64,000 nucleotides of DNA from Escherichia phage PBECO4, in the sequence record KC295538. The stretch is one strand, 5' to 3'. This document shows, piece after piece, positions 32,430 through 63,069 of this stretch (within the stretch, counting starts at the first letter, position 1; each line of letters opens with the position of its first letter). Below the pieces are notes generated by a model. The model had not been told where the DNA came from. It saw only the letters and a list, made by a program, of their open reading frames with translations, and searched no databases. The position numbers and the translations under genes were made by a program.

Positions 32430-32458
32430 GTTAATTACCCTTACATTTATTTTCAATA

Positions 32459-32698: not shown

Positions 32699-32699
32699 G

Positions 32700-34272: not shown

Positions 34273-34273
34273 T

Positions 34274-34651: not shown

Positions 34652-34865
34652 TACATTTGTCCATAATGTAATTCTTGAGTGCAACTATGTGTGCAATAAC
34701 ATACTCTTCCTGGAAGTTCGTCCCCAGTACAGCCATCATGCGTTTATCGGTGGTGTTTATCCTGTGTTCCCTTACACATAAACCTTCTTTGTGAGGAAGT
34801 GTAAAATATTTGTTTATTGCAGCAACGATAATTTTATTCTTCTCGGAGTTACTTAAATGTTTCAT
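34638..34865 (-). CDS. FamB paralog
   Basis: 75 aa; MAVLGTNFQEEYV. Confidence 0.65.
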   Translation of the reverse strand: MKHLSNSEKNKIIVAAINKYFTLPHKEGLCVREHRINTTDKRMMAVLGTNFQEEYVIAHIVALKNYIMDKCNEHH

Positions 34866-35074
34866 AGTTTACTCCTGATATAATTCTGAAGTGCAATTAA
34901 GTATTCCCCTACATAATACACCTGAAAGTCTGTATCAAGGAATGCACCCATAAGTAAATCTTTTTCTAATACCCTTGATAAGTTAAGGTCTGCATTTGAA
35001 AGGTATATAAGTAAGATTTCACCCTGTGCGGAATTGAAACGTTTCTTATATTCTTCTGGTGTTAAAAAAATCAT
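34862..35074 (-). CDS. FamB paralog
   Basis: 70 aa; GAFLDTDFQVYYV. Confidence 0.6.
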   Translation of the reverse strand: MIFLTPEEYKKRFNSAQGEILLIYLSNADLNLSRVLEKDLLMGAFLDTDFQVYYVGEYLIALQNYIRSKL

Positions 35075-35286
35075 AATTTGCTCCTGATATATTTCTCAAG
35101 AGATGACAAATACTTTTCCTCATAATACTTCTGATAGTCTGTTCCTAAGAATGCACCCAATAGTATATCATTTTCCAATACCTCGGCTAAGTTTAAATCA
35201 GAAGTCTCTTCGTATATTATGAGGATTTCAAGTTGTCTGGCAGCGATGCGTTCAGTATATTGATATGAGTTTTCTATAATAATCAT
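35071..35286 (-). CDS. FamB paralog
   Basis: 71 aa; GAFLGTDYQKYYE. Confidence 0.65.
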   Translation of the reverse strand: MIIIENSYQYTERIAARQLEILIIYEETSDLNLAEVLENDILLGAFLGTDYQKYYEEKYLSSLEKYIRSKL

Positions 35287-35492
35287 AATTTACTCTTTAT
35301 ATCTTGAATTAAAAATCGAATCCATTCTTCAACATAATCTTCCTGATGGTTTGTGTTCAGTACAGCCAACATGCGGATCTCTGCTCTTGCAACTTCAATT
35401 TCAGTTTTAGGAAGGTCTTTGCTGATATCCACCATTAAGTCCATGTATTTCAAGATAAGACCGTATGATTGGGTTCGTGTTATAGTTTTCAT
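35283..35492 (-). CDS. FamB paralog
   Basis: 69 aa; LAVLNTNHQEDYV. Confidence 0.6.
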   Translation of the reverse strand: MKTITRTQSYGLILKYMDLMVDISKDLPKTEIEVARAEIRMLAVLNTNHQEDYVEEWIRFLIQDIKSKL

Positions 35493-35689
35493 TGTTTCCT
35501 CGTGGACAATATTTTATTTTTCAATGTATCCATATATTGAATCACCCATCTTTCCTGATAGTTAGTTCCCAAAGTAATCAAAAGGTATAACTCCATTCGT
35601 TCTACGTGTGTGTCTGTATTATAAATCTTTGTGAAGTTTTTACGTAACAGTGATTGATATTCTTCTTTATTTAAAATACGCATTTTCAT
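35489..35689 (-). CDS. FamB paralog
   Basis: 66 aa; ITLGTNYQERWV. Confidence 0.65.
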   Translation of the reverse strand: MKMRILNKEEYQSLLRKNFTKIYNTDTHVERMELYLLITLGTNYQERWVIQYMDTLKNKILSTRKQ

Positions 35690-35883
35690 AGTTTACTCGT
35701 TATATCTTCAATTAAATACCAAATCCAATCGTTGACATACCTTTCCTGAAAGTTAGTTCCAATGAATAGTGCCATAATTAATTCACGCTTATAGGCAATA
35801 CCACGGTCATGGGACTTATACATTATCATAGCCATGTTATTGATAAGTCTTTCGTGGTGCTGTTCTTTAGTTAAAATACGCAT
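35686..35883 (-). CDS. FamB paralog
   Basis: 65 aa; LFIGTNFQERYV. Confidence 0.65.
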   Translation of the reverse strand: MRILTKEQHHERLINNMAMIMYKSHDRGIAYKRELIMALFIGTNFQERYVNDWIWYLIEDITSKL

Positions 35884-39776: not shown

Positions 39777-39998
39777 TTAATTACGTTTAAAATGATATGT
39801 GCCTTTATCATCCTGTACGCCCCATACTGATTTACCATCAACACCAGTGAAGCCGGATTGTAATTCAATATGGAAACCATTATTATCAACTACAAAAACT
39901 TTTTTATTTTCATCCCGATAACATTGATATTCTGAATCAACATTAAAGGCCGCATCATTCAGAAGATTGGAAGCGTAAATGCAAGTCATTGTAGTCAT
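39777..39998 (-). CDS. hypothetical protein
   Basis: Start moved to ATG at 39998 (MTTMTCIY...); track N-terminus MFYIERGKRFS is the translated leader hairpin. Confidence 0.55.
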   Translation of the reverse strand: MTTMTCIYASNLLNDAAFNVDSEYQCYRDENKKVFVVDNNGFHIELQSGFTGVDGKSVWGVQDDKGTYHFKRN

Positions 39999-40017
39999 GA
40001 TTTTATTCCTTATTGCC

Positions 40018-40078
40018 AGGGAGAACCGTTTCCCCCTCTCGATATAAAACATTATACTTGATTCTAAGTACAATGCAA
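40018..40078 (-). promoter_or_regulatory. PeSL-like promoter + leader hairpin
   Basis: TTGCAT-N16-TATAAT then gagggggaaacggttctccc. Confidence 0.6.
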
Positions 40079-41447: not shown

Positions 41448-41843
41448 TTAGATAACCTGTCGGCGTTTACTATATACTGTTACACGATTACCCTTACGGT
41501 CGTGTCGGATCTCTTTCTGGTTGCGTACCAGTTCACTTGGACGCTTCAGGTTTGCCAGGTGATCCGCGTGAGTCCAAGCGGTATGGTTTGTCTGTACTTT
41601 GATATCAGAATCAGCGATAAACTCATCTTGTGCATCAAGTATTGACGCCAGTAAATCCGCTCGTTTTAGTTCTGCTGCTGTTAGTACTGGCTCCGGTGAA
41701 TTCACAATATCAGAGATCTCTTTGAACTGTACGGCCCAGCGTTGACCTTTCGGTGCATCTTTGCCCATGTCTTTAAATGTTTCGCCTTCCTCGCGTGCAA
41801 CAATACGGGCAGCTTCACGGGTAGCGTAGAATTTAGTAATCAT
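41448..41843 (-). CDS. hypothetical protein (paralog of 54341..54607)
   Basis: shared KFYATREAARIxAR..GxTFKDMG and DRKGNRVTVY; start moved to ATG at 41843. Confidence 0.65.
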   Translation of the reverse strand: MITKFYATREAARIVAREEGETFKDMGKDAPKGQRWAVQFKEISDIVNSPEPVLTAAELKRADLLASILDAQDEFIADSDIKVQTNHTAWTHADHLANLKRPSELVRNQKEIRHDRKGNRVTVYSKRRQVI

Positions 41844-41938
41844 GGTATACATCCTATTAGTTGAGTTAGTACTACAAGTTAGAGTCTATTATAAAGTACT
41901 ATCTGGGCAATGTCAAATAGTACTTTAAATGGATTCTA

Positions 41939-42262
41939 TTACATGTCTTTCTTACGTTTTACATCGTGGTAGCGAACTGTTATTTCTTTGTTGATCTCTT
42001 CCTCGATGCGGTGAATAACTGTTTCTTTCGGGTTGAAACCTATAACGGTTTCTTTAATGATCTCCAAGCCCGTGTATTCTCCTTGTGTACCGTAACCGTA
42101 AGTAAAGGTTTCATGTCCCAGGTCTTCCCAGCGGTCGCCAATTAACGCGGACACGTAGCAAGAGTGGTAAGTGTTACCGTTCCGATCAGTCCAGCGATTA
42201 ACTTTAATGTCAAAGGAGGTTACAATTTTCAGTTCTACTTTCTGGGTAAGGATCATAGCCAT
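41939..42262 (-). CDS. hypothetical protein (paralog of 48709..49032)
   Basis: shared RWTDxxGNTYHSC.VS and DVKRKKD. Confidence 0.65.
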   Translation of the reverse strand: MAMILTQKVELKIVTSFDIKVNRWTDRNGNTYHSCYVSALIGDRWEDLGHETFTYGYGTQGEYTGLEIIKETVIGFNPKETVIHRIEEEINKEITVRYHDVKRKKDM

Positions 42263-48708: not shown

Positions 48709-49032
48709 TTAAAGATCTTTTTTACGTTTTACATCCTGTACAGTACAATGCAACGGGATAGACAAATCATTACACAAACGAGTAAGGGAGGTTTCAACAG
48801 TATCAAGCCCGTCTACTGATTCCTTTAAGAGATCAAACGCCGTTTGTTGATATGCATCTTCATAGCCATAAGTAAATGATTCAACCGCCAGATCATTCAA
48901 ACCGTTATCCAGTTCAACGCTTACATGACAAGAATGATAAGTATTGCCATATGAATCAGTCCAACGTTTACCGTCAACATTGATTGCATGGATTGCAGCC
49001 AGGGAAACGGTATTGATGATAGTTTTAGCCAT
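48709..49032 (-). CDS. hypothetical protein (paralog of 41939..42262)
   Basis: 107 aa; shared RWTDSYGNTYHSCHVS and DVKRKKD. Confidence 0.65.
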   Translation of the reverse strand: MAKTIINTVSLAAIHAINVDGKRWTDSYGNTYHSCHVSVELDNGLNDLAVESFTYGYEDAYQQTAFDLLKESVDGLDTVETSLTRLCNDLSIPLHCTVQDVKRKKDL

Positions 49033-49423: not shown

Positions 49424-49651
49424 TTAATTTAATTCATCCAGGCAAAGGATACGCTCAACGCCCAAATCAGTTAAACTAATCGACGGCACTTGATAGGTTT
49501 CAATGTATGCTACACTTGCCCACTGACCGAACTCATTAACGGCCCAGGTATTCATTGCATTTTGCAATTCCGCACCTGCCTTGTTAGTAATGACTGCAAC
49601 TACTTGTTCGTTGCCAGTAGTACCAGATACGCGAGTAATGATAATAGCCAT
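49424..49651 (-). CDS. hypothetical protein
   Basis: Start moved to ATG at 49651 (MAIIITRVSG...). Confidence 0.55.
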   Translation of the reverse strand: MAIIITRVSGTTGNEQVVAVITNKAGAELQNAMNTWAVNEFGQWASVAYIETYQVPSISLTDLGVERILCLDELN

Positions 49652-49674
49652 TGTTTTGATTCCTTTGATTTGGA

Positions 49675-49734
49675 AGGAGAACCGTTTCCCCCTCTCGATG
49701 TAAAACATTATACGCTAATCTCTTAATCGTGCAA
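49675..49734 (-). promoter_or_regulatory. PeSL-like promoter + leader hairpin
   Basis: promoter then gagggggaaacggttctcc hairpin. Confidence 0.6.
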
Positions 49735-52649: not shown

Positions 52650-52889
52650 TTACATTCCAACCATTGCAGCACGGATCGCCGTAGTGCTATACTTGAATCC
52701 GTCCGGTGTTGTAGTAGTACCGTTGGCTTTTAATCTGCGGTACATACATTGGGCCGCAATATCTTTAGTTTTACATTGTGCGATGCAACTTTGAGCAAGC
52801 CGATATAATGACTCACCGTTATTAATCCACAATGAAACATTCCAATGAGTTTTGTTTTTGTGCCCGTTGTAAGTTTTAGTAGTAGCCAT
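52650..52889 (-). CDS. hypothetical protein (paralog of 54698..54937)
   Basis: 79 aa; shared GHKNKTHWNVSLWINN and TPDGFKYSTTAIRAAMVGM. Confidence 0.65.
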   Translation of the reverse strand: MATTKTYNGHKNKTHWNVSLWINNGESLYRLAQSCIAQCKTKDIAAQCMYRRLKANGTTTTPDGFKYSTTAIRAAMVGM

Positions 52890-54340: not shown

Positions 54341-54607
54341 TTATTCAAGTACTGCAATCTTTTTAGTACGGTACACGGTCACGCGGTTGCCCTTTCGGTC
54401 GAGCTTTATTTCTACCACTCGACGCGATACACTATCGGGACTTTTTAAGGCCGCTAACCAGTACTGTAATGATCTGGCTGTACTACGCTTTACAATGGCC
54501 CAACGTTTACCACGTTCCGATTGTACGCCCATATCTTTAAACGTTGCCCCGTCCTGGCGTGCGGCGATCCGAGCTTGTTCACGCGTCGCAAAATACTTAA
54601 TATTCAT
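54341..54607 (-). CDS. hypothetical protein (paralog of 41448..41843)
   Basis: Start moved to ATG at 54607 (MNIKYFATREQ...). Confidence 0.65.
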   Translation of the reverse strand: MNIKYFATREQARIAARQDGATFKDMGVQSERGKRWAIVKRSTARSLQYWLAALKSPDSVSRRVVEIKLDRKGNRVTVYRTKKIAVLE

Positions 54608-54697: not shown

Positions 54698-54937
54698 TTA
54701 CATTCCAACCATCGCCGCACGGATCGCAGTAGTGCTATACTTAAAGCCGTCCGGTGTTTTATCTTGTCCAGTCTGTTCTAAAAATAGCATCATATGACGG
54801 GCCGCATCATTACGATTAGTATTGGCGGCAATAAAGTCCTGGGCCAACCGATACAATCCCTCATCGTTATTAATCCAAAGGCTTACATTCCAATGAGTTT
54901 TGTTTTTGTGACCTAAGAACATTTTTGATTTAGCCAT
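54698..54937 (-). CDS. hypothetical protein (paralog of 52650..52889)
   Basis: Start moved to ATG at 54937 (MAKSKMFLGHKNK...). Confidence 0.65.
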   Translation of the reverse strand: MAKSKMFLGHKNKTHWNVSLWINNDEGLYRLAQDFIAANTNRNDAARHMMLFLEQTGQDKTPDGFKYSTTAIRAAMVGM

Positions 54938-54957: not shown

Positions 54958-55016
54958 GTGGGGAACTATTCCCCACCTGATGTAAAGTATTATACGCTTT
55001 TAAATTTAGTTTGCAA
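54958..55016 (-). promoter_or_regulatory. PeSL-like promoter + leader hairpin
   Basis: TTGCAA..TATAAT then gtggggaatagttccccac. Confidence 0.65.
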
Positions 55017-55019
55017 GTA

Positions 55020-55253
55020 CTATTTTTTCAGTACTGGTAAACCTTTGATCTCACCTGGCTGTACTTCCTCAAAGGCGACCGCCATCATACGGCTATCATC
55101 TTCCTTACATTCTTCCATCGCATCACAAAAATGATTAATAACGTCCGGTGCAACGTCAACCACATCAAACAAGCCAACCTCAGTGCAACGGCTTAAAGCG
55201 TTTAATAGGTCAGTCAGTGCAACGGATTGAGAAACAGTTAAAATAGTACTCAT
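55020..55253 (-). CDS. hypothetical protein
   Basis: 77 aa ORF. Confidence 0.55.
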   Translation of the reverse strand: MSTILTVSQSVALTDLLNALSRCTEVGLFDVVDVAPDVINHFCDAMEECKEDDSRMMAVAFEEVQPGEIKGLPVLKK

Positions 55254-55273
55254 ACAATTAATCTCTTAATTAT

Positions 55274-55333
55274 AGTGGGGAACTATTCCCCACCTGATGT
55301 AAAACATTATACGCTTTTAAACTTAGTTTGCAA
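55274..55333 (-). promoter_or_regulatory. PeSL-like promoter + leader hairpin
   Basis: same hairpin sequence as 54958-54976. Confidence 0.65.
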
Positions 55334-55347
55334 GTACTTTATTAAAC

Positions 55348-55710
55348 TTATTTGTAAATTTTGCCACTGTCAGCCCATACCAGGAAACGAGGCATATTAT
55401 CCCATGCATCTTGTTTTAAATTTAAACCGTGCAATTCCTCAGTAGTTGCCATCCCTGGTACTGGCTTACTACACACCGCGAAATTTTCGCCCATATACTG
55501 ATAAACCATCGTCAAATCATTTGAGATCATCTTATGGATCATCGCATCAAGCATCACGGTAGCGGCGTATTGTTCACGCTTAAGCGGCAGCATTTTAATC
55601 AGTTCGCGGTATGCGTCAATGTGAGTTTTAACCGTTGCCGCCGGAAGATCTTTCATCTCGTCGCGGAAGTTAACCAGGTTAGCAATAATTTTGGTGATTT
55701 GAGTTGCCAT
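55348..55710 (-). CDS. hypothetical protein
   Basis: Start moved to ATG at 55710 (MATQITKII...). Confidence 0.6.
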   Translation of the reverse strand: MATQITKIIANLVNFRDEMKDLPAATVKTHIDAYRELIKMLPLKREQYAATVMLDAMIHKMISNDLTMVYQYMGENFAVCSKPVPGMATTEELHGLNLKQDAWDNMPRFLVWADSGKIYK

Positions 55711-55733
55711 CGTTTTAATCTCTCTTAAAGTGT

Positions 55734-55793
55734 AGCGGGAACACTTCCCGCTCTCGATGTAAAACATTATACGCTTTTATCAGTACGGTGCAA
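55734..55793 (-). promoter_or_regulatory. PeSL-like promoter + leader hairpin
   Basis: promoter then agcgggaagtgttcccgct. Confidence 0.6.
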
Positions 55794-55825
55794 GTACTTT
55801 CTACAAATACTTTTAAAATAGTTTT

Positions 55826-55917
55826 CTTTCTATATAGGAGTACTATTATTCAGTACTGAATCAATCCAGGGGAACTATCTTTCTATATAGGAGTACTATT
55901 ATTCAGTACTGAATCAA
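55826..55917. repeat. tandem direct repeat (2 x ~40 bp)
   Basis: ctttctatataggagtactattattcagtactgaatcaa twice, 13-bp spacer. Confidence 0.7.
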
Positions 55918-56069
55918 CCAAATCACTACTACACCCCATAAAACGGCCTCAGACGCATTCTAACGCATTAATACACCTAAGCTATACATTTGCACCACTC
56001 CCAACAATCCAGGGCGTTACGGGCCGTTTAAACGCGTTAAATTATTTTCAATTATTTTGTTTTTAGGTA

Positions 56070-56097
56070 TTGACTTGATCCTGAAAAAGCGTATAAT
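56070..56097 (+). promoter_or_regulatory. plus-strand sigma70-like promoter
   Basis: TTGACT-N16-TATAAT in ORF-free region. Confidence 0.5.
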
Positions 56098-56284
56098 TAC
56101 TACATAGACGCGAGAAAGCGGAAACCCCAGAGGGTGCGGAATTACGCCCAAAATTCAAGATATAAAAAAAGGATACACTCCCGCACCCTAGCAGGTAAAC
56201 GCACTTTCTCAGTACTGAATTATAGTACCATAGTCCGGCCCAGGATGGCAAGCAAATTAATTAAAACTTTTTTCATCCAGGGTA

Positions 56285-56312
56285 TTGCTTTATTTTTCCA
56301 GTACTGTATAAT
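56285..56312 (+). promoter_or_regulatory. plus-strand sigma70-like promoter
   Basis: TTGCTT-N16-TATAAT. Confidence 0.45.
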
Positions 56313-56409
56313 AGTTCCATCAAGTCGAGAAAGACTCAAGCCCACCGGGTGCATAGTTACGCCCAAAATTCAGTACTGAAAAAATTTTTAAAAATATCCG
56401 TCCAGGCCG

Positions 56410-56438
56410 TTGACATTGCCCCCAGTTTATAAGATAAT
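56410..56438 (+). promoter_or_regulatory. plus-strand sigma70-like promoter
   Basis: TTGACA-N17-GATAAT upstream of iteron-like array. Confidence 0.5.
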
Positions 56439-56534
56439 GATTCCAGATTCAGAAAAATCTAACTCCAGATACTGCGGGGAAACTATCCCCACGCGGTAGG
56501 GGAACTATTGGAAAAAACAAAATAAAATTTTGAT

Positions 56535-56655
56535 TTAGCCGTCTATACTTCCAGACGTGTAACCATCTAGCCGTTTAGCCGTCCAAACGTCTAGCCATCC
56601 AGCCATCCAGAAATCTAGCCGTTTAGCCGTCTAGATGGATAGCCATCTTTACTTC
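56535..56655. repeat. iteron-like direct repeat array (TAGCCGTY / AGCCATC units)
   Basis: ttagccgtc, ctagccgtttagccgtc (twice), ctagccatccagccatccag, agatggatagccatc within ~120 bp. Confidence 0.65.
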
Positions 56656-57048
56656 CAGACTTCTGGAGGGCTAGACATATCTACGTCCAAAATCCACCCA
56701 GGGTAACTACGCCCAAAATCCGTCAGTACTATACCATAGATCTATCTTTTGAAAGGGAGTATTCAGTACTGCCACAATAGCCCTCACTATGTTACCCTAG
56801 GAGGATGAAGACTATCATGTAGTACTGAATACTGTTAGAGGGAATCCACCAGCTTGTGCTGGTGGCATAATGCTTTAGATTAAAATCAGTACTGACACCA
56901 TTCTGTTAATATCAGTACTGTTATTACGATTTTCATATGAGGTTCAAAAAGATGTACCACCACAGGAGGAACTATCTTTTCTGTACTGTCTCACGACAGG
57001 AGGTAGAGTAAATGAATTGTTCGCAGCAACTCATCACCCTATGTAGAA

Positions 57049-57077
57049 CATTATACAGTACTGAATCATAATGTCAA
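57049..57077 (-). promoter_or_regulatory. minus-strand sigma70-like promoter reading into ORF-free region
   Basis: TTGACA-N17-TATAAT on minus strand; no ORF downstream for >1 kb. Confidence 0.5.
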
Positions 57078-57705
57078 TAGCTTTCTTTCATTATTCAGTA
57101 CTGATATTCTTGAGAACTACCCGACTACAAACATCATTATATCCCACAAATCATAAACGTCCCAACGTAAATTTCAACTTTCGAAGATCCAACTTTTATT
57201 TCATAGGTACTCCAAAATTTTTAGGATCGAGATTTAGGATGGAGTACTAACCAACTTTTTGCTGGAGCCTCAAGGGGTAATGGAATTTTACCCCGAAGGG
57301 TAAAGGGGTAATTGAAATTAAGGTGAAAGTAATAATTCAGTACTAATCATTGCGTGATTACTTTTGATTACATTTGATGTAATTTGAAAAATGGAAAAGG
57401 AGCTTGGAAACTACAAAGTACGGCAGACTTCCTCTGCCTACTTAGTGGCATATCAGTACTGAATCCTTCCCGTGCATTCTTGAGCATTCTTGTCTATACT
57501 AATCAGTACTGAATCATATATAATCATTCTGTGATTCTACGGTGCTCATATAAATGTTTATATATGATTACTTATGACTACCTATGATTACGGGGTTTAG
57601 CCTGGGGAGAATCCTAGTGATCGCATTTGTCCAGGCTGAATTTTAACAATTCGCCTGTACATAAAGGTTGTTCACTAGGAGCTTCCCCTGTCTACTTGTG
57701 TTTAA

Positions 57706-57897
57706 TTACTTCCTATATATAAGCATTAAGATATAGTAGTACTGATTATACTGTACATTCTCTTTAATATTATAAGGGTCTATAGCAATCTCGGTACATC
57801 TGTTAAATGCATATCTATTAAATGCCAGTGGAATTATAGATCTAATCCATACTTGTTCATTTTCTTTTAGTTTACTTATATAGAAGTTTTTATACAT
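57706..57897 (-). CDS. FamC paralog
   Basis: 63 aa; MYKNFYISKL ... YYYILMLIYRK. Confidence 0.6.
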   Translation of the reverse strand: MYKNFYISKLKENEQVWIRSIIPLAFNRYAFNRCTEIAIDPYNIKENVQYNQYYYILMLIYRK

Positions 57898-57912
57898 AGT
57901 ATTCTCTATTAA

Positions 57913-58095
57913 TTAATATGATAGTACTAGTGTTAGTACTGAGCACAATTGTTCTTTGTAGTTCTTAGGGTATATAGAATCTTTTATGCACTCATTGAAG
58001 TGCCATAGGTATAATCTTGGGTCGCATTCTTTATATATTCTTACGGGGACGAATGTTAGTTTTCGTATATAGAATTCTTTATGTTCTTTATTCAT
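57913..58095 (-). CDS. FamC paralog
   Basis: 60 aa; MNKEHKEFYIRKL ... FNECIKDSI. Confidence 0.6.
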   Translation of the reverse strand: MNKEHKEFYIRKLTFVPVRIYKECDPRLYLWHFNECIKDSIYPKNYKEQLCSVLTLVLSY

Positions 58096-58096
58096 A

Positions 58097-58285
58097 TTAG
58101 TACCTGAATATAAGTAGGATTATGTTATAGTACTGGTTAGTACTGCAATGATTCTCTATACATCGATTAACAGTTATGGAATAGCTATATCTGGCGTAAG
58201 CATTATCCAGCGGGATTTTACATTGAGCACTTAGAGAAAGTACAGTAGGTAGTGTATTCAAATAGAAGTCTTTGTAATTATTCAT
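58097..58285 (-). CDS. FamC paralog
   Basis: 62 aa; MNNYKDFYLNTL ... YYNIILLIFRY. Confidence 0.6.
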   Translation of the reverse strand: MNNYKDFYLNTLPTVLSLSAQCKIPLDNAYARYSYSITVNRCIENHCSTNQYYNIILLIFRY

Positions 58286-58487
58286 ACAGGAATAGTATAC
58301 CTATGATACCTGAGTACAGGTTAGTACTGTTACCATCTTCGTTTGCGTTTAAAGTCATTTGAATACAATTATTGTAGCATACTCTGCCGAAAAATGTATT
58401 AGTACTTAAAGGTGGAGTAGTCCTTAGAAACATTTGTTCTGAGGGGCTTATGTATTTGGAGTAGAATTCTTTATGTTCTTTATTCAT
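58278..58487 (-). CDS. FamC paralog
   Basis: 69 aa; MNKEHKEFYSKY ... YNNCIQMTL. Confidence 0.6.
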   Translation of the reverse strand: MNKEHKEFYSKYISPSEQMFLRTTPPLSTNTFFGRVCYNNCIQMTLNANEDGNSTNLYSGIIGILFLYE

Positions 58488-58492
58488 ATTAG

Positions 58493-58678
58493 TTAGTGTC
58501 TGTATATAAGTAATAGTAAGAATACGTACTGCACATCTTCATCTTTAGTATTGAGTACTGTACGTATTGCGTCATTAAACAAGAATATAGTACTTGGGTC
58601 ATGAAAATTTAAAGGGGTTCTGGGTACGGCATGTTTGTAGTTCCCTTTAACAAATTGTGTGTAGTATTCTCTATGCAT
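58493..58678 (-). CDS. FamC paralog
   Basis: 61 aa; MHREYYTQFV ... YVFLLLLIYRH. Confidence 0.6.
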   Translation of the reverse strand: MHREYYTQFVKGNYKHAVPRTPLNFHDPSTIFLFNDAIRTVLNTKDEDVQYVFLLLLIYRH

Positions 58679-58679
58679 A

Positions 58680-58865
58680 TTAGTACCTATATATTAGGGC
58701 GAGAATGTAGTACAATTCATATGGAATGTAATTTGGGGTGATCGCACACTGTGTATGGTAAATGAATTGTTCGGTATTTTTCTTATCCTTGATATCTATT
58801 GGGATTTGTGGTATAAGCATTTTGGAGTTTAGATCGAGATGGCTTAAGTAGAATTCTTTATGCAT
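58680..58865 (-). CDS. FamC paralog
   Basis: 61 aa; MHKEFYLSHL ... YYILALIYRY. Confidence 0.6.
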   Translation of the reverse strand: MHKEFYLSHLDLNSKMLIPQIPIDIKDKKNTEQFIYHTQCAITPNYIPYELYYILALIYRY

Positions 58866-58874
58866 ATTGTTCTC

Positions 58875-59063
58875 TTAGAATACGAAAGCTAGGTACAGGG
58901 TATGATACAGTACTCGATGATAGCTGTCAAAATCTAGTATACATGCTTTAGTGCACATAGTAAAGTACACTTTATCGTTTTGTGCATTGATACCGCGAGG
59001 TTTATCTAATAGATTAGTTCTGAGGTACATTGGGAAATATTTTGTGTAGTATTCTTTATGCAT
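58875..59063 (-). CDS. FamC paralog
   Basis: Start moved to ATG at 59063 (MHKEYYTKYF...). Confidence 0.6.
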   Translation of the reverse strand: MHKEYYTKYFPMYLRTNLLDKPRGINAQNDKVYFTMCTKACILDFDSYHRVLYHTLYLAFVF

Positions 59064-59064
59064 A

Positions 59065-59247
59065 TTAGTACCTGAATATAAGTAGGATAGTGTTATATAG
59101 CTGGTCATAACTACTACTATTTTCTATACTTCGTTCTATGCAGTTATTGAATCCCAGTACTGCCAAATCGTTATCCAGGGGGACTTTGTATCTGGTGTAG
59201 TGTTCAAAAATGCTGGGGAGAAATTGTGTGTAGTATTCTTTGTGCAT
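59065..59247 (-). CDS. FamC paralog
   Basis: 60 aa; MHKEYYTQFL ... FNNCIERSI ... LYNTILLIFRY. Confidence 0.6.
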   Translation of the reverse strand: MHKEYYTQFLPSIFEHYTRYKVPLDNDLAVLGFNNCIERSIENSSSYDQLYNTILLIFRY

Positions 59248-59248
59248 A

Positions 59249-59434
59249 TTAGTACTTATATATTAGTAAAAGGATGTGATACAGTACTCGATTATAGTCT
59301 TCAATATATATCGAGGATTTAGTGCACTGAATGAAGTAGTCTTTTTCGTAGTTTTTTTCTATACCCAATGCAACGTTTGGTACAAGGTGTTGGAGATACA
59401 TTGGGAGTTTCTCTATGTAGTATTCTTTATACAT
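59249..59434 (-). CDS. FamC paralog
   Basis: 61 aa; MYKEYYIEKL ... YHILLLIYKY. Confidence 0.6.
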   Translation of the reverse strand: MYKEYYIEKLPMYLQHLVPNVALGIEKNYEKDYFIQCTKSSIYIEDYNRVLYHILLLIYKY

Positions 59435-59443
59435 ATATTATCC

Positions 59444-59644
59444 TTAGTACTGGAACGCAAGGTACAGGGTGTGGTACAGTTGTACTTGATAATTGTTTTC
59501 ATTAGCTTCTTCATTAAGTACTTGTTCAGTACATGTACGGAAGTAATCAGCTTCATATATACAGTCAATACCGCGAGGTTCATCTTCTAATAGATTTCCT
59601 TGTAGAAACTTTGGTAGTTCTTTTATGTAGAATTCTTTATACAT
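59444..59644 (-). CDS. FamC paralog
   Basis: Start moved to ATG at 59644 (MYKEFYIKEL...). Confidence 0.6.
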   Translation of the reverse strand: MYKEFYIKELPKFLQGNLLEDEPRGIDCIYEADYFRTCTEQVLNEEANENNYQVQLYHTLYLAFQY

Positions 59645-60308
59645 AGTTTGTAATATACGTAATGAGGTGATGCATTTTCTTATTAGTACTGATAATTTCC
59701 TGTACATGTTTTGTCAGATTGTACGCGTTTTTATAGAGTGCTGGATTATCGATTACAGTACTGTACATGAATAGTTCTTCCTCGGATAATTCTTTGCCTT
59801 GTAATTCTTTGAGGAATTGTAGTACTGTATCAGTTTCTTCTGTACGTTGTGCTTGCCAGAAGTGCATATTCTCGTGTACTTTTTCTGCATCAGTAGAGTA
59901 TATGCCACCCATTTGGAATTGTGCTGTATTGACATCGTGGGAGGTGTTACAATTCCCGAAGAAGTATGTATTCCCGAAGTATAGCATTAAAGTGCACGGG
60001 GTATTATCCAACTGCATATTGATGATGAAGGATGCGTTCTTTAGTACCTTTGTGCTCGTATTAGTACTCAATACTTTTAAATCAGTATTATAGATATTCA
60101 TATAATGAACAGCTATATTATTTTTCTTCATGTACAATTCAAGGTTCTTTGATACGTTAACTCCATTTGTACTGGATTTTTCCTTTTTATTTCGTTTCTT
60201 TAGTACATTCGGGTGATACGTATATGCAGATGTAACTGATTCTGCCTGAATACTATTGAGGTACTTAAAGTGCTTAAGGTATTGTTTGCTGTGTGCATTA
60301 AGTTTCAT
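59637..60308 (-). CDS. hypothetical protein with FamA-like motif
   Basis: 223 aa; EEELFMYSTVID near C-terminus. Confidence 0.6.
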   Translation of the reverse strand: MKLNAHSKQYLKHFKYLNSIQAESVTSAYTYHPNVLKKRNKKEKSSTNGVNVSKNLELYMKKNNIAVHYMNIYNTDLKVLSTNTSTKVLKNASFIINMQLDNTPCTLMLYFGNTYFFGNCNTSHDVNTAQFQMGGIYSTDAEKVHENMHFWQAQRTEETDTVLQFLKELQGKELSEEELFMYSTVIDNPALYKNAYNLTKHVQEIISTNKKMHHLITYITNYV

Positions 60309-60318
60309 TTGGTTTCCT

Positions 60319-60498
60319 TTATATAGATGCCAGGGCGAGGATTTCCCTGTAGGGATTATCTTGTGTTAGTACAGCATAAATGCAGCTATTGAGATTAATA
60401 TTTTTAGTACTTTTTGTTCCTAGTTTGTAGTACTTCACGAAGGTGTCGTACATGAAACGGTCTTTTATGGTTATACGTTCTCTATAGAATTGTTGCAT
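60319..60498 (-). CDS. FamC-like small protein (59 aa)
   Basis: ATG ORF MQQFYRERITIKDRFMYDTFVKYY...; below track cutoff. Confidence 0.4.
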   Translation of the reverse strand: MQQFYRERITIKDRFMYDTFVKYYKLGTKSTKNINLNSCIYAVLTQDNPYREILALASI

Positions 60499-60506
60499 AG
60501 TATTCC

Positions 60507-60689
60507 TTAAATAGCGATTAGTTTCATTACTTCTCTGTATGTGTACTTTTCGTTTTGTGCATCTCTTGTGACGACATATAGGAAGGTGTGTTTATCTTTT
60601 TTGTTCCCGCAATTGTAGAAAATATTGAACTTATTGAAGTTGAATCTTTCGGCGTGTTGTAGTTTAGTTAAATAGAATTCTATGTTCAT
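60507..60689 (-). CDS. FamC-like paralog
   Basis: 60 aa; MNIEFYLTKL ... KYTYREVMKLIAI. Confidence 0.55.
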   Translation of the reverse strand: MNIEFYLTKLQHAERFNFNKFNIFYNCGNKKDKHTFLYVVTRDAQNEKYTYREVMKLIAI

Positions 60690-60697
60690 TTTCTTCC

Positions 60698-60883
60698 TTA
60701 CATTTCAATAAGTTTCAGTACTGCTCGGTACGTGTACTTAGTTGTCAGTGCTTCTTTAATAGAAATACAGAAGTAATGTTGTTTGTCTCTTATACTGCCG
60801 CGTTTGTAGTACCACACATGGGAGTTGTGACTGTACTTGTCTCTGTCGGATAGTTGTTGGTAGTAGTAGCTTATATGATTCAT
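60698..60883 (-). CDS. FamC-like paralog
   Basis: 61 aa; ... TKYTYRAVLKLIEM. Confidence 0.55.
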   Translation of the reverse strand: MNHISYYYQQLSDRDKYSHNSHVWYYKRGSIRDKQHYFCISIKEALTTKYTYRAVLKLIEM

Positions 60884-60930
60884 TGTAATTAGCCTTACTA
60901 TGTTAAAGTACTCGGTCCCTGGTGTACCTT

Positions 60931-61125
60931 TTAGAACTTAAAGATGAGGTTCAGGATAGAGCGGTACTTAGTTGCAGGGAACGTATGTTCTATTGCATAA
61001 CGTGTCACCATCCTGAAATCGTAATTATAATACAGATTATCCTTTCTCATAGGTGGTGCTAAAGAGAATGATAGCTGTTCTTGTTTGGGTAGTTTACTAC
61101 AATAGAAATCTTTATGATTATTCAT
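60931..61125 (-). CDS. FamC paralog
   Basis: 64 aa; MNNHKDFYCSKL ... KYRSILNLIFKF. Confidence 0.6.
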   Translation of the reverse strand: MNNHKDFYCSKLPKQEQLSFSLAPPMRKDNLYYNYDFRMVTRYAIEHTFPATKYRSILNLIFKF

Positions 61126-61327
61126 AGAAATATATTAGTCCTATTAAACCTGAGTACATAATATTTTTGTTATTACATTCGATTGCTTCTATAGTACTAC
61201 GTATACAATTATTAAAGCAATCTCTGGCGTGTGGTGTATCTATACTTAAAGGTGATACACTCCTTAGAAACAATTGTTCTTCGTTGCTAAGGTATTTGGT
61301 GTAGAATTCTTTATGTTCAGTATTCAT
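61118..61327 (-). CDS. FamC paralog
   Basis: 69 aa; MNTEHKEFYTKY ... FNNCIRSTI; close paralog of 58278..58487. Confidence 0.6.
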   Translation of the reverse strand: MNTEHKEFYTKYLSNEEQLFLRSVSPLSIDTPHARDCFNNCIRSTIEAIECNNKNIMYSGLIGLIYFYE

Positions 61328-61328
61328 A

Positions 61329-61532
61329 TTAGTACTCGATTAAAAGGGCAAGGATATAATAGTATTGCATACTTTCTGCCCCTTGTAAAGCATTTCTTAT
61401 GATATTACTCCTGTACGAGTTCAGGAGTTTAGGACAACGTTTGTAGTGTATAAAAGTATTTTGTGTATACAGTAGGCTTTCTCGTAGACCTTTTGTTGGT
61501 AGTGCATCGATGTAGTACTGTTCAATGTTCAT
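61329..61532 (-). CDS. FamC paralog
   Basis: 67 aa; MNIEQYYIDAL ... YYYILALLIEY. Confidence 0.6.
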   Translation of the reverse strand: MNIEQYYIDALPTKGLRESLLYTQNTFIHYKRCPKLLNSYRSNIIRNALQGAESMQYYYILALLIEY

Positions 61533-61756
61533 ATAGATAGCAGTACTAAGATTTTTGATAATTGTTTATTGCTATCCCCGCAGATGTTGCTGTGTAAAAT
61601 ACTCACAATGAGGGTATCAATTGCATTGTTCATCATAAGGGTGCATCCTGGACTATTATAATTTTTTAGCTCAATTAGCCACGAACTATCCGCGAGAAAT
61701 TCCCCGTACTCTAGTTCATTTAGAGTATTGAGGTAGTACTTAAGAGTATTTGTCAT
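61529..61756 (-). CDS. FamC-like paralog
   Basis: 75 aa; MTNTLKYYLNTL... Confidence 0.5.
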   Translation of the reverse strand: MTNTLKYYLNTLNELEYGEFLADSSWLIELKNYNSPGCTLMMNNAIDTLIVSILHSNICGDSNKQLSKILVLLSI

Positions 61757-61858
61757 GTGTAGTTCTCCTTATATTCCTTCTATAGTACACCAGTACTGAA
61801 AGGATGTCAAGGGTTTTCTTTATGGGGTAAATATGATATAATGAATAAGGAGGGAAAT

Positions 61859-63061
61859 ATGTTACCTTTTGGAAGAATGGTTAAGTACGCAAATATTGCA
61901 CCAGGTCCAGAACCTGTAGAGTTCTCAGATGTTTTACAACAACATTATACAAACTGTATGTATCTACATAACCCAACTAATACTTTATATGGTTATGGTA
62001 GTAATAACATGTATCAATTTGGTCTTGGGAATTCAGCAGCAGTTTCGTCATTTACAGTACTTGCAAGGAACTGTGCAGCCTTTTGGCTTGGTGTTCAAGG
62101 TTCGTTGATGATTGATTTGGATAATAAAATATACTACACTGGGTCTGTGGCTGCATTTTCTGATTATGGAGATGCAACACCTGTTAATGGTTATTTGACA
62201 ACATGGACTGATGTTACTGTTGCATTTAATAAAATAGGTGTTATGGCTAATATGATCAAGAGTGTATATATAGGTGAAAGTACTAGAATATTATTAACCG
62301 ATGGTAGAGTAATTGCGTGTGGAAGAAATACCAATGGTGAATGTGGCTCTGGTAATAAAAATTCCATCCCTACACTCACAGTTATGACTAATATGGGTGA
62401 AGTTACACATATGGCATGTTCATTACAAGGAACGCACTATATCAAATCAAATAAAGATGCATGGTTTTGTGGTAAGGATAACTTTGGTGAAAGTGGATGT
62501 GGTGGTAGTTCTGTTGTATATTTGAACAAATTCGTGATTAGTAATGTAGAACATATTAGTACTACATACGATGTTACTTGGTGGTTTACTACTGGTGGGT
62601 CTGTATATTATAGCGGGGCTAACAGTACTGGACAAGCGGGTAATGGTACGACTACATCGGTAAATCAGCTAACACCAATTAGGAACACATCGGTCACGGT
62701 TGATGTAAGTAAGTACAGTACTTTTATTTGTCCAAGTAATATGGGAAATGCATCAATTGGTGCACCTATGGCACAATACGCACCATATGTTAGAAGTAGT
62801 GGTGCTAACTCATATGGTCAAGAAGGTAATGGAACTAATACATTAGTTAGAACTTGGAATATTTTTAATCTTAGTGCAATAAGTGGTGGTTATGAAAATG
62901 TTCTTATGGCATCTAAAGATTGGAGCAGAACCATAATAATTACTAAAGATTATAAATTATATGCATGTGGTGGCTGGAATGGAAATGGTGGTAGATTGCC
63001 AGATGGCACTTATAGTATTACTACACTAACATTAATGCCAACGCAGTTATGGCAACAATAG
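61859..63061 (+). CDS. RCC1-like repeat (beta-propeller) protein
   Basis: Repeated G-x-N-x-x-G-Q/E-x-G-x-G units (GANSTGQAGNGTTTS, GANSYGQEGNGTNT, GRNTNGECGSGNKNS); GGAGGG SD before ATG at 61859. Confidence 0.65.
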   Translation: MLPFGRMVKYANIAPGPEPVEFSDVLQQHYTNCMYLHNPTNTLYGYGSNNMYQFGLGNSAAVSSFTVLARNCAAFWLGVQGSLMIDLDNKIYYTGSVAAFSDYGDATPVNGYLTTWTDVTVAFNKIGVMANMIKSVYIGESTRILLTDGRVIACGRNTNGECGSGNKNSIPTLTVMTNMGEVTHMACSLQGTHYIKSNKDAWFCGKDNFGESGCGGSSVVYLNKFVISNVEHISTTYDVTWWFTTGGSVYYSGANSTGQAGNGTTTSVNQLTPIRNTSVTVDVSKYSTFICPSNMGNASIGAPMAQYAPYVRSSGANSYGQEGNGTNTLVRTWNIFNLSAISGGYENVLMASKDWSRTIIITKDYKLYACGGWNGNGGRLPDGTYSITTLTLMPTQLWQQ

Positions 63062-63069
63062 GAGGGAAT

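What the first reader, a model, noticed from the sequence alone, without database searches (positions are those of the whole stretch)
57706..61756. Third expanded family: ~17 tandem ~60 aa paralogs (M-x-KE-x-KEFY ... FNxCI ... YxxILLLIYRY) (FamC)
Consecutive 60-77 aa ORFs share an N-terminal MNKEHKEFY/MHKEYY/MYKEFY start, a central (F/Y)NxCIxxx(I/L) segment and a hydrophobic aromatic C-terminus (ILLLIYRY, LLLLIYRH, IGILFLYE). Intergenic spacers are short and themselves repeated (..cttatattcaggtactaatATG..). With FamA and FamB this gives roughly 95 of ~170 genes in three lineage-specific families.
Basis: seen in the sequence. Interest (0 to 1): 0.7.

Follow-up and report, generated by a model that had tools for sequence, protein, structure and literature searches.

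The report
Tandem small-protein gene family, jumbo coliphage
A 4-kb operon of a giant E. coli phage (genus Asteriusvirus) holds 17 back-to-back genes for ~60-residue soluble helical proteins, at least 16 of them copies of one genus-restricted family of unknown function whose copy number differs between related phages; it is real but an ordinary kind of viral accessory-gene expansion.

Summary
Window 57706-61756 (minus strand) carries 17 small ORFs (59-75 aa) plus one embedded 223-aa ORF, about 97% coding.

- **Family membership:** twelve ORFs are clear paralogs (leave-one-out HMM E 3e-8 to 2e-20). Iterative profiles recruit four more with no decoys. The first gene stays unproven.
- **Coding status:** pN/pS is 0.42 in frame and 1.05 in both off-frames.
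- **Source:** an Asteriusvirus jumbo coliphage, 99.5% identical to vB_EcoM_CRJP21.
- **Distribution:** the family (PHROG 11711, unknown function) was found only in Asteriusvirus-like sequences: 30 clusters among 1.84 billion representatives.
- **Known relatives:** none in Pfam, PDB sequences or folds.
- **Structure:** AlphaFold2 gives a confident four-helix model (pLDDT 90.5) and there is no transmembrane segment.
- **Array dynamics:** arrays hold 14-22 members in ten genomes, on a conserved skeleton.
- **Position:** the operon has a conserved sigma-70-type promoter and ends 264 bp before the right direct terminal repeat.

Best reading, with function inferred only: an early, translationally coupled operon of diversified host-interaction proteins that evolves by gene gain and loss.

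Corrections: the "repeated spacers" are mostly conserved C-terminal codons plus stop. Two ORFs are over-extended. Membrane association is not supported.

The parts
61757..61810 (-). Operon promoter and leader. TTGACA (61810-61805), 6 nt, CAGTACTG, 3 nt, TACTAT (to 61782), with an A-rich stretch upstream. AAGGAG Shine-Dalgarno lies 8 nt before the first ATG.
   Evidence: Consensus scan, 10 of 12 matches; sequence; near-invariant in 9 Asteriusvirus genomes. The same TTGACA/TTGCAA..CAGTACTG..TATAAT layout occurs at promoter-like sites inside the terminal repeat. Activity not shown.
61529..61756 (-). Gene 1 (75 aa, orthogroup H). Family-like ends (xxYYLNTL.. and ..ILVLLSI), but membership is unproven.
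   Evidence: Not recruited by the iterated HMM. E 0.04-0.4 against the family HMM and hhalign P=0.017 over 16 N-terminal residues. Present in all genomes compared.
61329..61532 (-). Gene 2 (67 aa, orthogroup I), a divergent member. Its start overlaps gene 1 by 4 nt (ATGA).
   Evidence: Recruited at iterations 1-3 of the profile search; C-terminus YYYILALLIEY.
61118..61327 (-). Gene 3 (69 aa, orthogroup A), a core member of the '..FYE' subtype. One-nucleotide gap after gene 2.
   Evidence: Leave-one-out E 2.3e-20; 74% nucleotide duplicate of 58248-58493 (D2).
60931..61125 (-). Gene 4 (64 aa, orthogroup B), a core member. 8-nt overlap with gene 3.
   Evidence: Leave-one-out E 2.2e-11; universal in 10 genomes.
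60698..60883 (-). Gene 5 (61 aa, orthogroup C), subgroup '..YTYRxxLKLIxx'.
   Evidence: Alignment A3; recruited by the iterated HMM; hhalign of core against this subgroup P=0.003 over 48 columns.
60507..60689 (-). Gene 6 (60 aa, orthogroup Q), same subgroup. Present in only 4 of 10 genomes.
60319..60498 (-). Gene 7 (59 aa, orthogroup D), same subgroup. Universal.
59637..60308 (-). Embedded 223-aa gene, not a family member. It is universal in the arrays and always separates the upstream block from the downstream core block.
   Evidence: PHROG 29152, unknown function. No Pfam or PADLOC match. Homologs only on Asteriusvirus-like contigs. hhalign against the family E 0.15. AlphaFold2 pLDDT 42.5, unusable.
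59444..59644 (-). Gene 9 (66 aa, orthogroup U), a core member. The true start is the internal Met of the 87-aa ORF; 8-nt overlap with the 223-aa gene.
   Evidence: annotated in CRJP21 as 201 nt; PHROG 11711, E 4e-27.
59249..59434 (-). Gene 10 (61 aa, orthogroup J), a core member.
   Evidence: Leave-one-out E 3.7e-18.
59065..59247 (-). Gene 11 (60 aa, orthogroup K), a core member and the sequence that was modelled.
   Evidence: PHROG 11711, E 5.6e-24. AlphaFold2 pLDDT 90.5, four helices. The independent BFVD model of the ortholog matches at TM 0.96.
58875..59063 (-). Gene 12 (62 aa, orthogroup E), a core member. The true start is the internal Met of the 77-aa ORF.
58680..58865 (-). Gene 13 (61 aa, orthogroup L), a core member.
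   Evidence: E 7.3e-10.
58493..58678 (-). Gene 14 (61 aa, orthogroup F), a core member. Universal.
58278..58487 (-). Gene 15 (69 aa, orthogroup M), a paralog of gene 3. It belongs to a duplicated two-gene unit and is absent from 121Q and G17.
   Evidence: (D2).
58097..58285 (-). Gene 16 (62 aa, orthogroup P), the counterpart of gene 4. 8-nt overlap with gene 15; present in 5 of 10 genomes.
57913..58095 (-). Gene 17 (60 aa, orthogroup N), a core member.
   Evidence: E 2.9e-8; PHROG 11711, E 1.6e-6.
57706..57897 (-). Gene 18 (63 aa, orthogroup G), the last gene of the operon. Universal.
57443..57705 (-). 3' untranslated stretch between the last stop codon and the terminal repeat. It folds stably and contains a 60-nt block (57647-57588) that is identical in 10 genomes.
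   Evidence: Alignment; block coordinates; RNA fold z = -4.0. No canonical terminator with a U-tract. In L011, high conservation begins exactly at this block.
57422..57442 (-). First bases of the direct terminal repeat (AGTAGGCAGAGGAAGTCTGCC, hairpin-capable). This is context that fixes the array's position in the chromosome.
   Evidence: 40/40 match to base 1 of fEgEco12. Its 20,993-bp terminal repeat was defined by PhageTerm and restriction digests (PMC13070987).

Best explanation
The region is a single polycistronic operon of an Asteriusvirus jumbo coliphage. It holds 18 tightly packed genes, many of them probably translationally coupled.

Seventeen genes encode ~60-aa soluble, Tyr-rich proteins, and at least 16 of these belong to one genus-restricted family. 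The predicted fold is a small four-helix domain. Its buried positions (N-terminal HKE[FY]Y, F33, C36, I41 and the C-terminal Y..IL.LI.RY helix) are conserved, while its surface and net charge vary widely between paralogs.

The array changes by gain and loss of genes, probably through unequal recombination between the conserved gene junctions. This gives 14-22 copies per genome on a fixed skeleton.

It sits at the right end of the unique sequence, 264 bp before the right terminal repeat, behind a conserved sigma-70-type promoter of the same layout as promoter-like sites inside the repeat.

Inferred, not shown: host RNA polymerase transcribes it early, and the paralogs are non-virion host-interaction proteins (take-over or counter-defence) that each bind a different or variant target.

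My confidence by step:
- real protein-coding tandem family: about 0.93;
- single operon transcribed early from a sigma-70 promoter: about 0.6;
- host-interaction or anti-defence role: about 0.35.
For: **Shown here**
- ORFs and paralogy.
- Coding signature: pN/pS 0.42 in frame against 1.05 in both off-frames, with a third-position excess (p=3e-8). Core positions give 0.19 and variable positions 0.48.
- Structure: confident four-helix model, reproduced by an independent BFVD model of the ortholog at TM 0.96. Conserved residues follow a helical-core spacing.
- Solubility: no 19-residue window exceeds a Kyte-Doolittle mean of 1.18. pI ranges from 4.4 to 9.6.
- Operon layout: about 97% coding density, overlaps or one-nucleotide gaps at 9 of 17 junctions, and TAAGGA-type ribosome sites at most others.
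- Promoter conserved in 9 genomes.
- Copy number 14-22, about 33 orthogroups at 70% identity, 7 of them universal, and a duplicated two-gene unit.
- Fast divergence: in metagenomic relative L011 the members are 26-59% identical to the window's, while the adjacent terminal-repeat gene is 95.7% identical.
- Position next to the terminal repeat.

**From the literature, by analogy**
- In the related phage CBB, RpoD-like promoters cluster over short hypothetical ORFs next to and inside the terminal repeat. That region is proposed to be early and to serve host take-over (PMC5259590).
- In PA5oct, RNA-seq shows most terminal-repeat genes to be early, and the phage relies on host RNA polymerase (PMC7318152).
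- The 62 virion proteins of phAPEC6 include the neighbouring RCC1-like gp549 and gp551 but no gene of this array (PMC7247149).
Against: - No expression, proteomic or phenotypic data exist for any member.
- The promoter is only a consensus match. The whole-region scan found no more promoter-like sites than shuffled sequence (27 against 31.6).
- No similarity to any known anti-defence or take-over protein.
- pN/pS never exceeds 1, so positive selection is not demonstrated.
- Virion mass spectrometry often misses 7-kDa proteins, and most of these ORFs were not annotated in phAPEC6 (H12: only 8 features).
- The sharp conservation contrast in L011 could reflect recombinational exchange of the terminal repeat rather than fast evolution of the array.
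- Membership of gene 1 is unproven.
Confidence: 0.45

Rival explanations
1. The genes are mostly dispensable passengers. Repeated junction sequences cause unequal recombination that keeps generating and deleting copies. The copies persist under weak constraint, with no distinct role for each one.
For: Copy number and content vary even between phages about 95% identical. Overall pN/pS is only moderately low, at 0.42. The junction sequences are the most repeated DNA in the array (D3-D6). No function is known.
Against: Seven orthogroups are present in all ten genomes and keep their order. Core positions are under clear constraint, at pN/pS 0.19. The fold is confidently predicted. The promoter and ribosome site are nearly invariant. 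Reading frames stay intact even in the very divergent L011.
Confidence: 0.2
2. The proteins are assembly factors or minor virion components that serve the divergently transcribed array of RCC1-like virion proteins next door.
For: The two arrays share a 102-bp divergent control region, and both are multi-copy. RCC1-like proteins are in the phAPEC6 virion.
Against: No member is among the 62 phAPEC6 virion proteins. The promoter is sigma-70-type, not the ATAAATA late type described for structural genes in related phages. The genes run away from the RCC1 array and toward the terminal repeat.
Confidence: 0.1
3. The proteins are small membrane proteins anchored by the hydrophobic aromatic C-terminus, for example for superinfection exclusion or lysis timing.
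Against: The hydrophobic run is only about 10 residues. The highest 19-residue Kyte-Doolittle mean is 1.18, and 0.01-1.02 in the core members. In the model this helix packs against helix 3 as the core of a globular domain. There is no signal peptide-like N-terminus.
Confidence: 0.04
4. The primary function lies in the DNA, as a periodic array of AGTACT-bearing repeats used for recombination, packaging or protein binding near the chromosome end. The ORFs would then be secondary.
For: AGTACT is about 14-fold over-represented and recurs roughly once or twice per gene unit. Several junctions contain AGTACTAA or GGTACTAA. The array abuts the terminal repeat.
Against: The AGTACT excess is present throughout the window and all relatives, not just in this array. 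Only 3 CAGTACTG copies lie in the array. Frame-specific purifying selection shows that the protein products matter.
Confidence: 0.04
5. The ORFs are chance open frames in AT-rich repeated DNA and are not translated.
For: Gene callers disagree. CRJP21 annotates only 4 of the 18 genes, and BF17 and G17 skip several.
Against: pN/pS is 0.42 in frame against 1.05 off-frame. All 18 frames are intact across ten genomes and in L011. Ribosome sites or coupling junctions precede every gene. The structure prediction is confident.
Confidence: 0.02

Closest known systems
PHROG 11711 (with PHROG 29152 for the embedded 223-aa gene): phage protein clusters of unknown function
   Same: Six tested core members match phrog_11711 at E 1.6e-6 to 4e-27 over the full 62-position profile. 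The 223-aa protein matches phrog_29152 at E 9e-156. The sequences are therefore already catalogued, and they are deposited as 'hypothetical protein' in about 35 GenBank phage records.
   Different: The PHROG entry carries no function, structure or description of the tandem organisation. The 60319-60883 subgroup and genes 1-2 do not match it. None of the papers I found and read on these phages describes the family.
Terminal multigene families of large eukaryotic DNA viruses, such as African swine fever virus MGF100/110/360/505 and poxvirus terminal families with 'genomic accordion' copy-number change (from my own knowledge, not tested here)
   Same: Tandem paralogs of small proteins lie next to the terminal repeats of a large linear dsDNA genome. 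Copy number differs between close isolates. Divergence is faster than in the neighbouring sequence. Several unrelated families are involved: FamA and FamB beside the left repeat, FamC and the RCC1-like genes beside the right.
   Different: There is no sequence or fold relationship. The host is a bacterium. The host-range or immune-evasion role that defines those families is untested here. Selection is purifying overall, not demonstrably positive.
Proposed early host-take-over regions of Rak2-like jumbo phages, such as the CBB_390-546 region and terminal repeat (PMC5259590), and the T4 early small ORFs in plastic regions (the latter from my own knowledge)
   Same: Runs of short hypothetical ORFs lie behind RpoD-like promoters with A-rich upstream elements, adjacent to or inside the terminal repeat.
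   Different: In those regions the ORFs are mostly unrelated singletons; only 22 paralogous ORFs were reported for all of CBB. Here 16-17 consecutive genes are one family in one operon. Early timing has not been measured for any Asteriusvirus.
Lineage-specific expansions in other jumbo phages, for example about 35 zinc-ribbon copies in Bacillus phage G (PMC7824862)
   Same: A small domain is amplified to tens of copies within one phage lineage, with the function only guessed.

Membership tests
PHROG 11711 (unknown function) | Significant full-length match to the family HMM | tested here: met
   Six core members give E 1.6e-6 to 4e-27 over profile positions 1-62. The tested divergent members (60319, 60698, 61329) do not match. 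61529 was not scanned against PHROGs.
Any Pfam-A, PADLOC or PDB-sequence family | Match above the curated or significance threshold | tested here: not met
   Best Pfam hits are E 0.04-0.1, far below the gathering scores. PADLOC gives none. Best PDB sequence-profile hit is E 0.54.
Single FamC superfamily (all 17 ORFs) | Each ORF linked to the core by a significant profile match, with no decoys | tested here: inconclusive
   Sixteen of 17 are linked by an iterated HMM with 0 of 964 decoys. Gene 1 (61529-61756) reaches only E 0.04-0.4 and hhalign P=0.017.
Small integral membrane proteins | A hydrophobic segment of about 18-20 residues (Kyte-Doolittle 19-residue mean of about 1.6 or more) | tested here: not met
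   Highest 19-residue mean is 1.18, and 0.01-1.02 in core members. The C-terminal helix is modelled as part of a globular core.
Helix-turn-helix or other known DNA-binding folds | Structural match to a solved DNA-binding domain | tested here: not met
Early, host-RNA-polymerase-transcribed take-over genes of Rak2-like phages | RpoD-like promoter (TTGACA, 16-18 nt, TATAAT-like) with an A-rich upstream element | tested here: met
   TTGACA-17-TACTAT preceded by ATAAAGAAAA and conserved in 9 genomes. This is a consensus match only.
Early, host-RNA-polymerase-transcribed take-over genes of Rak2-like phages | Transcript present in the first minutes of infection; effect on a host process | not testable with these tools
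   No transcriptome or functional study of an Asteriusvirus was found. The only support is analogy to CBB and PA5oct.
Terminal multigene families (African swine fever virus or poxvirus type; analogy only) | Tandem paralogs adjacent to the terminal repeats, with copy number varying between isolates | tested here: met
   The array ends 264 bp before the terminal-repeat start. Ten genomes carry 14-22 members.
Terminal multigene families (African swine fever virus or poxvirus type; analogy only) | Role in host range or evasion of host defence | not testable with these tools
   This needs deletion mutants and host panels.
Virion structural proteins | Detection in purified particles | tested here: not met
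   The phAPEC6 ESI-MS/MS list of 62 proteins has no gp53x and no gp54x other than gp549, which is RCC1-like. Caveat: the proteins are small and poorly annotated.

The most novel reading that the evidence does not exclude
FamC could be a phage-encoded repertoire of small binding proteins. A previously unseen four-helix scaffold would have a fixed core and a freely varying surface and charge. It would be amplified and reshuffled at the chromosome end so that each paralog neutralises a different host factor or defence-system variant. That would make it a bacterial-virus counterpart of the terminal multigene families of African swine fever virus and poxviruses. Together with FamA, FamB and the RCC1-like genes, this would mean Asteriusviruses keep dedicated 'arms-race' gene arrays flanking both terminal repeats.
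Probability: 0.2. Interest if true: 0.7.

Novelty: new member of a known kind. Interest (0 to 1): 0.4.

Why it matters
About 80% of the genes of jumbo phages have no known function, and Asteriusviruses are being proposed for therapy.

This work turns 17 scattered 'hypothetical proteins', many of them missed by gene callers, into a defined object. It is one operon and essentially one family, with a confident small fold, a conserved promoter, a fixed place next to the terminal repeat and a documented pattern of gene gain and loss.

That makes a clean experiment possible: delete or swap the array and test host range and sensitivity to defence systems. If the members prove to be counter-defence or take-over proteins, the family would be a source of new small inhibitors. 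It would also be an example of terminal multigene-family evolution in a bacterial virus. If not, it remains a well-documented but ordinary accessory-gene expansion.

Tried and rejected
1. **Homology to known families.** Pfam, PADLOC, PDB sequence profiles, a 5.8-billion-protein word-indexed search and an exhaustive HMM search of 1.84 billion representatives returned only Asteriusvirus-like hits.
3. **A FamC-like C-terminal domain in the 223-aa protein.** I suspected this by eye. hhalign gave E 0.15 and the AlphaFold2 model had pLDDT 42.5, so I dropped the idea.
4. **A FamB-FamC relationship.** hhalign gave P 0.05-0.17, so the families are unrelated.
5. **Membrane anchoring.** Rejected by hydropathy.
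6. **Positive selection on variable positions.** pN/pS was 0.48, so it is not demonstrated.
7. **Rfam scan of 55000-62500.** Nothing above threshold; one chance-level hit at E 0.25.
8. **A canonical intrinsic terminator after the array.** None found. The 'terminator-like' hairpin at 57438-57422 is actually the first bases of the terminal repeat.
9. **Literature.** I found no description of this family or of the CAGTACTG motif.

Full report
**What the window is**

The region is 99.5% identical to Escherichia phage vB_EcoM_CRJP21. It matches about 35 jumbo coliphage and Salmonella phage records of the genus Asteriusvirus, such as 121Q, G17, phAPEC6 and fEgEco12. The window contains no tRNA gene.

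**Checking the observation**

ORF listing and translation confirm an uninterrupted run of minus-strand ORFs from 61756 down to 57706.

Two small ORFs are over-extended. The 77-aa and 87-aa versions overlap the upstream gene by 44-71 nt. Starting at the internal Met gives 58875-59063 (62 aa) and 59444-59644 (66 aa), both with the family's usual N-terminus and junction. Related records annotate them that way.

- Tyr6 is invariant in all 17.
- Among 83 distinct core sequences from ten genomes, the conserved positions are H2-K3-E4-[FY]5-Y6, L10, P23, F33, C36, [TI]37, I41, [YL]50, Y51, L54, L56, I57 and [YF]58.

The "repeated intergenic spacers" are mostly not spacers. For example, cttatattcaggtacTAAtATG is the codons for ..L-I-F-R-Y, then the stop, one nucleotide and the next start. 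Of the 17 junctions, 4 are overlaps (4 or 8 nt), 5 are one-nucleotide gaps, 7 are 5-15 nt gaps that usually contain TAAGGA, and one is 47 nt. Only 116 of 4051 nt are non-coding.

**Is it one family, and more than chance?**

An HMM built from any 11 of the 12 core members finds the twelfth at E 2.9e-8 to 2.3e-20 against the window's 964 six-frame ORFs. Nothing else in the window scores.

The other five ORFs are only marginal against the core profile, at E 0.1-1.3. I collected the arrays of ten genomes, giving 176 members. An iterated profile search starting from the core then recruited the 61329 type, next a bridging type absent from this window, and finally the whole 60319-60883 subgroup. It converged with no decoy hit. 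hhalign of the core against that subgroup gives P=0.003 over 48 collinear columns.

The first gene (61529-61756, 75 aa) is never recruited. It scores E 0.04-0.4, and hhalign gives P=0.017 over the N-terminal 16 residues. Sixteen of 17 are therefore demonstrable members.

FamB, the neighbouring ~70-aa family, is unrelated. So is the 223-aa protein.

**Are they genes?**

I compared 44 ungapped ortholog pairs. pN/pS is 0.42 in the annotated frame and 1.05 in each of the two shifted frames. Substitutions are concentrated at third codon positions (222, 213 and 332; p=3e-8).

Over 126 distinct ortholog pairs, positions conserved among paralogs give pN/pS 0.19 and variable positions 0.48. The pairs are not phylogenetically independent; the frame control is what matters.

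All frames stay open in ten genomes and in a much more divergent metagenomic relative. So these are protein-coding genes under moderate purifying selection. I found no proteomic or ribosome-profiling data.

**What the proteins look like**

AlphaFold2, run on an 18-sequence alignment, gives a confident model with mean pLDDT 90.5 and pTM 0.73. It has helices at 3-7, 12-17, 27-42 and 46-58. The independently built BFVD model of the ortholog superposes at TM 0.96.

The conserved residues have the spacing expected of a buried helical core, and the variable ones would be exposed. The hydrophobic aromatic C-terminus is therefore a core helix. No 19-residue window reaches a transmembrane-like hydropathy (highest 1.18). 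The proteins are Tyr-rich (11% against 6.2% in the other minus-strand ORFs below coordinate 57000), and pI spans 4.4-9.6.

No structural relative emerged:
- Foldseek against the PDB gives E 4 or worse;
- BFVD returns only the protein's own ortholog.

The 223-aa protein could not be modelled (pLDDT 42.5).

**Distribution**

- tblastn finds the family in 32 phage records, all Escherichia or Salmonella jumbo phages; those I examined are Asteriusvirus or closely similar.
- A profile search of 5.8 billion proteins returns 49 hits. All the sequences I inspected are orthologs of the window's members, several on contigs of about 350 kb.
- An exhaustive HMM search of 1.84 billion cluster representatives returns only 30 clusters. 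All but one truncated 41-aa sequence are 57-69 aa and match over nearly their full length.
- One of the most distant hits lies on a contig with the same architecture: leader genes, 223-aa gene, array, ORF-free stretch and first terminal-repeat gene.
- There is no match in Pfam, PADLOC or PDB sequences. The only catalogue entry is PHROG 11711, of unknown function.
- The papers I found and read on these phages do not describe the family.

**Array dynamics**

Ten genomes carry 14 to 22 members. Clustering at 70% identity gives about 33 orthogroups. Seven are universal, and the skeleton is conserved:

H I A B C .. D [223-aa gene] .. J K E L F .. G

- The subgroup block between C and D varies from 2 to 6 copies. 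The downstream core block also varies.
- This window has a two-gene unit (58278-58487 plus 58097-58285) that duplicates 61118-61327 plus 60931-61125 at 74% nucleotide identity. The unit is absent from 121Q and G17.
- In BF17 and fEgEco12 the A-type gene sits in the downstream block instead.
- The most repeated DNA in the array is 60-70 nt spanning each junction, that is, a C-terminus plus the next N-terminus (D3-D6). These repeats are plausible substrates for unequal recombination; that step is inference.

**Genomic position and control**

The fEgEco12 genome has a 20,993-bp direct terminal repeat, established by PhageTerm and restriction digests (PMC13070987). Its first 40 bases match window 57442 downward exactly.

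The array's last stop codon (57706) is therefore 264 bp upstream of the right terminal repeat. The G+C step at about 36,000 fits the other end of the repeat.

Upstream of gene 1 lies TTGACA-N6-CAGTACTG-N3-TACTAT, with an A-rich stretch before it and an AAGGAG ribosome site after it. This segment is almost invariant in nine genomes. The same layout recurs at promoter-like sites inside the terminal repeat, for example TTGACA-N8-CAGTACTG-TATAAT at 57077-57050.

No terminator-like site lies inside the array on the coding strand. The 265 nt after the last gene fold unusually stably (z = -4.0) and contain a 60-nt block identical in ten genomes.

**Rate contrast**

In the divergent relative L011, FamC proteins are 26-59% identical to their best window counterparts, and the 223-aa protein is 40% identical. 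From the 60-nt block onward, however, the DNA is 94% identical, and the first terminal-repeat gene is 95.7% identical at the protein level. Either the operon evolves much faster than its neighbour, or the terminal repeat has been exchanged by recombination.

**Interpretation**

Shown:
- a genus-restricted tandem family of real genes for small soluble helical proteins;
- packing into one dense unit behind a conserved sigma-70-like promoter at the edge of the terminal repeat;
- turnover of members between genomes.

Inferred by analogy: early transcription by host RNA polymerase.
- In CBB, RpoD-like promoters over short ORFs next to and in the terminal repeat are proposed to mark the early take-over region (PMC5259590).
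- In PA5oct, terminal-repeat genes are early by RNA-seq, and the phage depends on host polymerase (PMC7318152).

Also inferred: a non-virion role. The phAPEC6 virion proteome lists the adjacent RCC1-like gp549 and gp551 but no array gene (PMC7247149). The caveat is that the proteins are small and poorly annotated.

The conserved core with a variable surface and charge, the copy-number changes and the terminal location all resemble accessory host-interaction families of large DNA viruses. I therefore favour diversified take-over or counter-defence proteins, at about 0.35 confidence for that step.

The main rival is that most copies are weakly constrained passengers of a recombination-prone locus. 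Membrane, structural, DNA-level and non-coding readings are each disfavoured by specific tests.

**Verdict**

It is a new, undescribed member of a familiar kind: a lineage-specific expansion of small accessory genes in a large virus. Interest is moderate. It would rise if a host target or a defence-related phenotype were found.

Noticed in passing
whole window; densest at 55851-57511; also L001-L011: The palindromic octamer CAGTACTG occurs 54 times against 0.73 expected. Its core AGTACT occurs 258 times in the window, and 82 times against 5.9 expected in 14 kb of phage E9.1. Every one of the most frequent 8-mers contains it. Flanks in coding regions are not conserved, so paralogy does not explain it. 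Twelve copies lie in the ORF-free stretch, usually as TTCAGTACTGAAT. Some sit between the -35 and -10 elements of promoter-like sites, including the FamC promoter. It could be a regulator or nucleoid-protein site, a promoter element or a modification target. I found no literature on it.
   Followed up: partly
window 55768-57705: An ORF-free stretch of about 1.9 kb is conserved as ORF-free in 121Q, G17, A4 and fEgEco12. It contains the physical start of the direct terminal repeat at 57442, whose first 21 nt (AGTAGGCAGAGGAAGTCTGCC) can form a hairpin. It also holds a perfect TTGACA-16-TATAAT site at 57077-57050 on the minus strand and an 8-nt-period tandem repeat (CGTCTAGC, CATCCAGC and so on) at 56540-56690 (D1). 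No Rfam family matches.
   Followed up: partly
window 57588-57647 (minus strand) and L011 4140-4199: A 60-nt block (GTTAAAATTCAGCCTGGACAAATGCGATCACTAGGATTCTCCCCAGGCTAAACCCCGTAA) is identical in ten genomes although its flanks vary. It contains a CCTGG/CCAGG stem. In the divergent contig L011 it marks the exact point where identity to the window jumps from under 76% to 94%. It could be a 3'-end or processing element of the operon, or a recombination or packaging boundary.
   Followed up: partly
window ~36,000-57,442: G+C is 0.36-0.39 here against 0.29-0.34 in the rest of the window below 36,000. The length of about 21 kb matches the direct terminal repeat reported for fEgEco12 and Sharanji. The window therefore seems to come from an assembly with the repeat collapsed to one copy, and it reads across the junction between the unique region and the repeat.
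   Followed up: partly
window 29526-35883 (FamB) and 1-28000 (FamA): Two further minus-strand paralog arrays lie just beyond the other end of the terminal repeat. FamB has 25-28 members of 65-90 aa with a conserved GTNYQ motif. FamA-type genes of 150-200 aa form clusters of 14 and 11 or more. FamB is unrelated to FamC by hhalign.
   Followed up: partly
window 61841-64000 (plus strand): An array of RCC1-like (beta-propeller) paralogs is transcribed divergently from FamC (Pfam RCC1, E 4.8e-10). The true start of the first gene is probably the second Met at 61859, which follows AAGGAGG. Orthologs gp549 and gp551 are virion proteins in phAPEC6, which encodes eleven such genes.
   Followed up: no
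public records L002 (CRJP21), L004 (G17), L006 (BF17), phAPEC6: Annotation of this array is very uneven. CRJP21 annotates 4 of 18 genes, while BF17, G17 and phAPEC6 skip several. E9.1 and 121Q annotate nearly all. Gene counts and 'unique gene' claims in comparative papers on these phages will be affected.
   Followed up: no
window 39777-40052, 49424-49708, 55348-55767; 52650-52889 and 54698-54937; 41939-42262 and 48709-49032; 41448-41852 and 54341-54607: Small paralog pairs and a triplet occur among the terminal-repeat genes, for example the MFYIE(R/S)GK.. proteins and the MA(T/K)..GHKNKTHWNVSLWINN.. pair. Duplication is therefore common inside the repeat as well.
   Followed up: no
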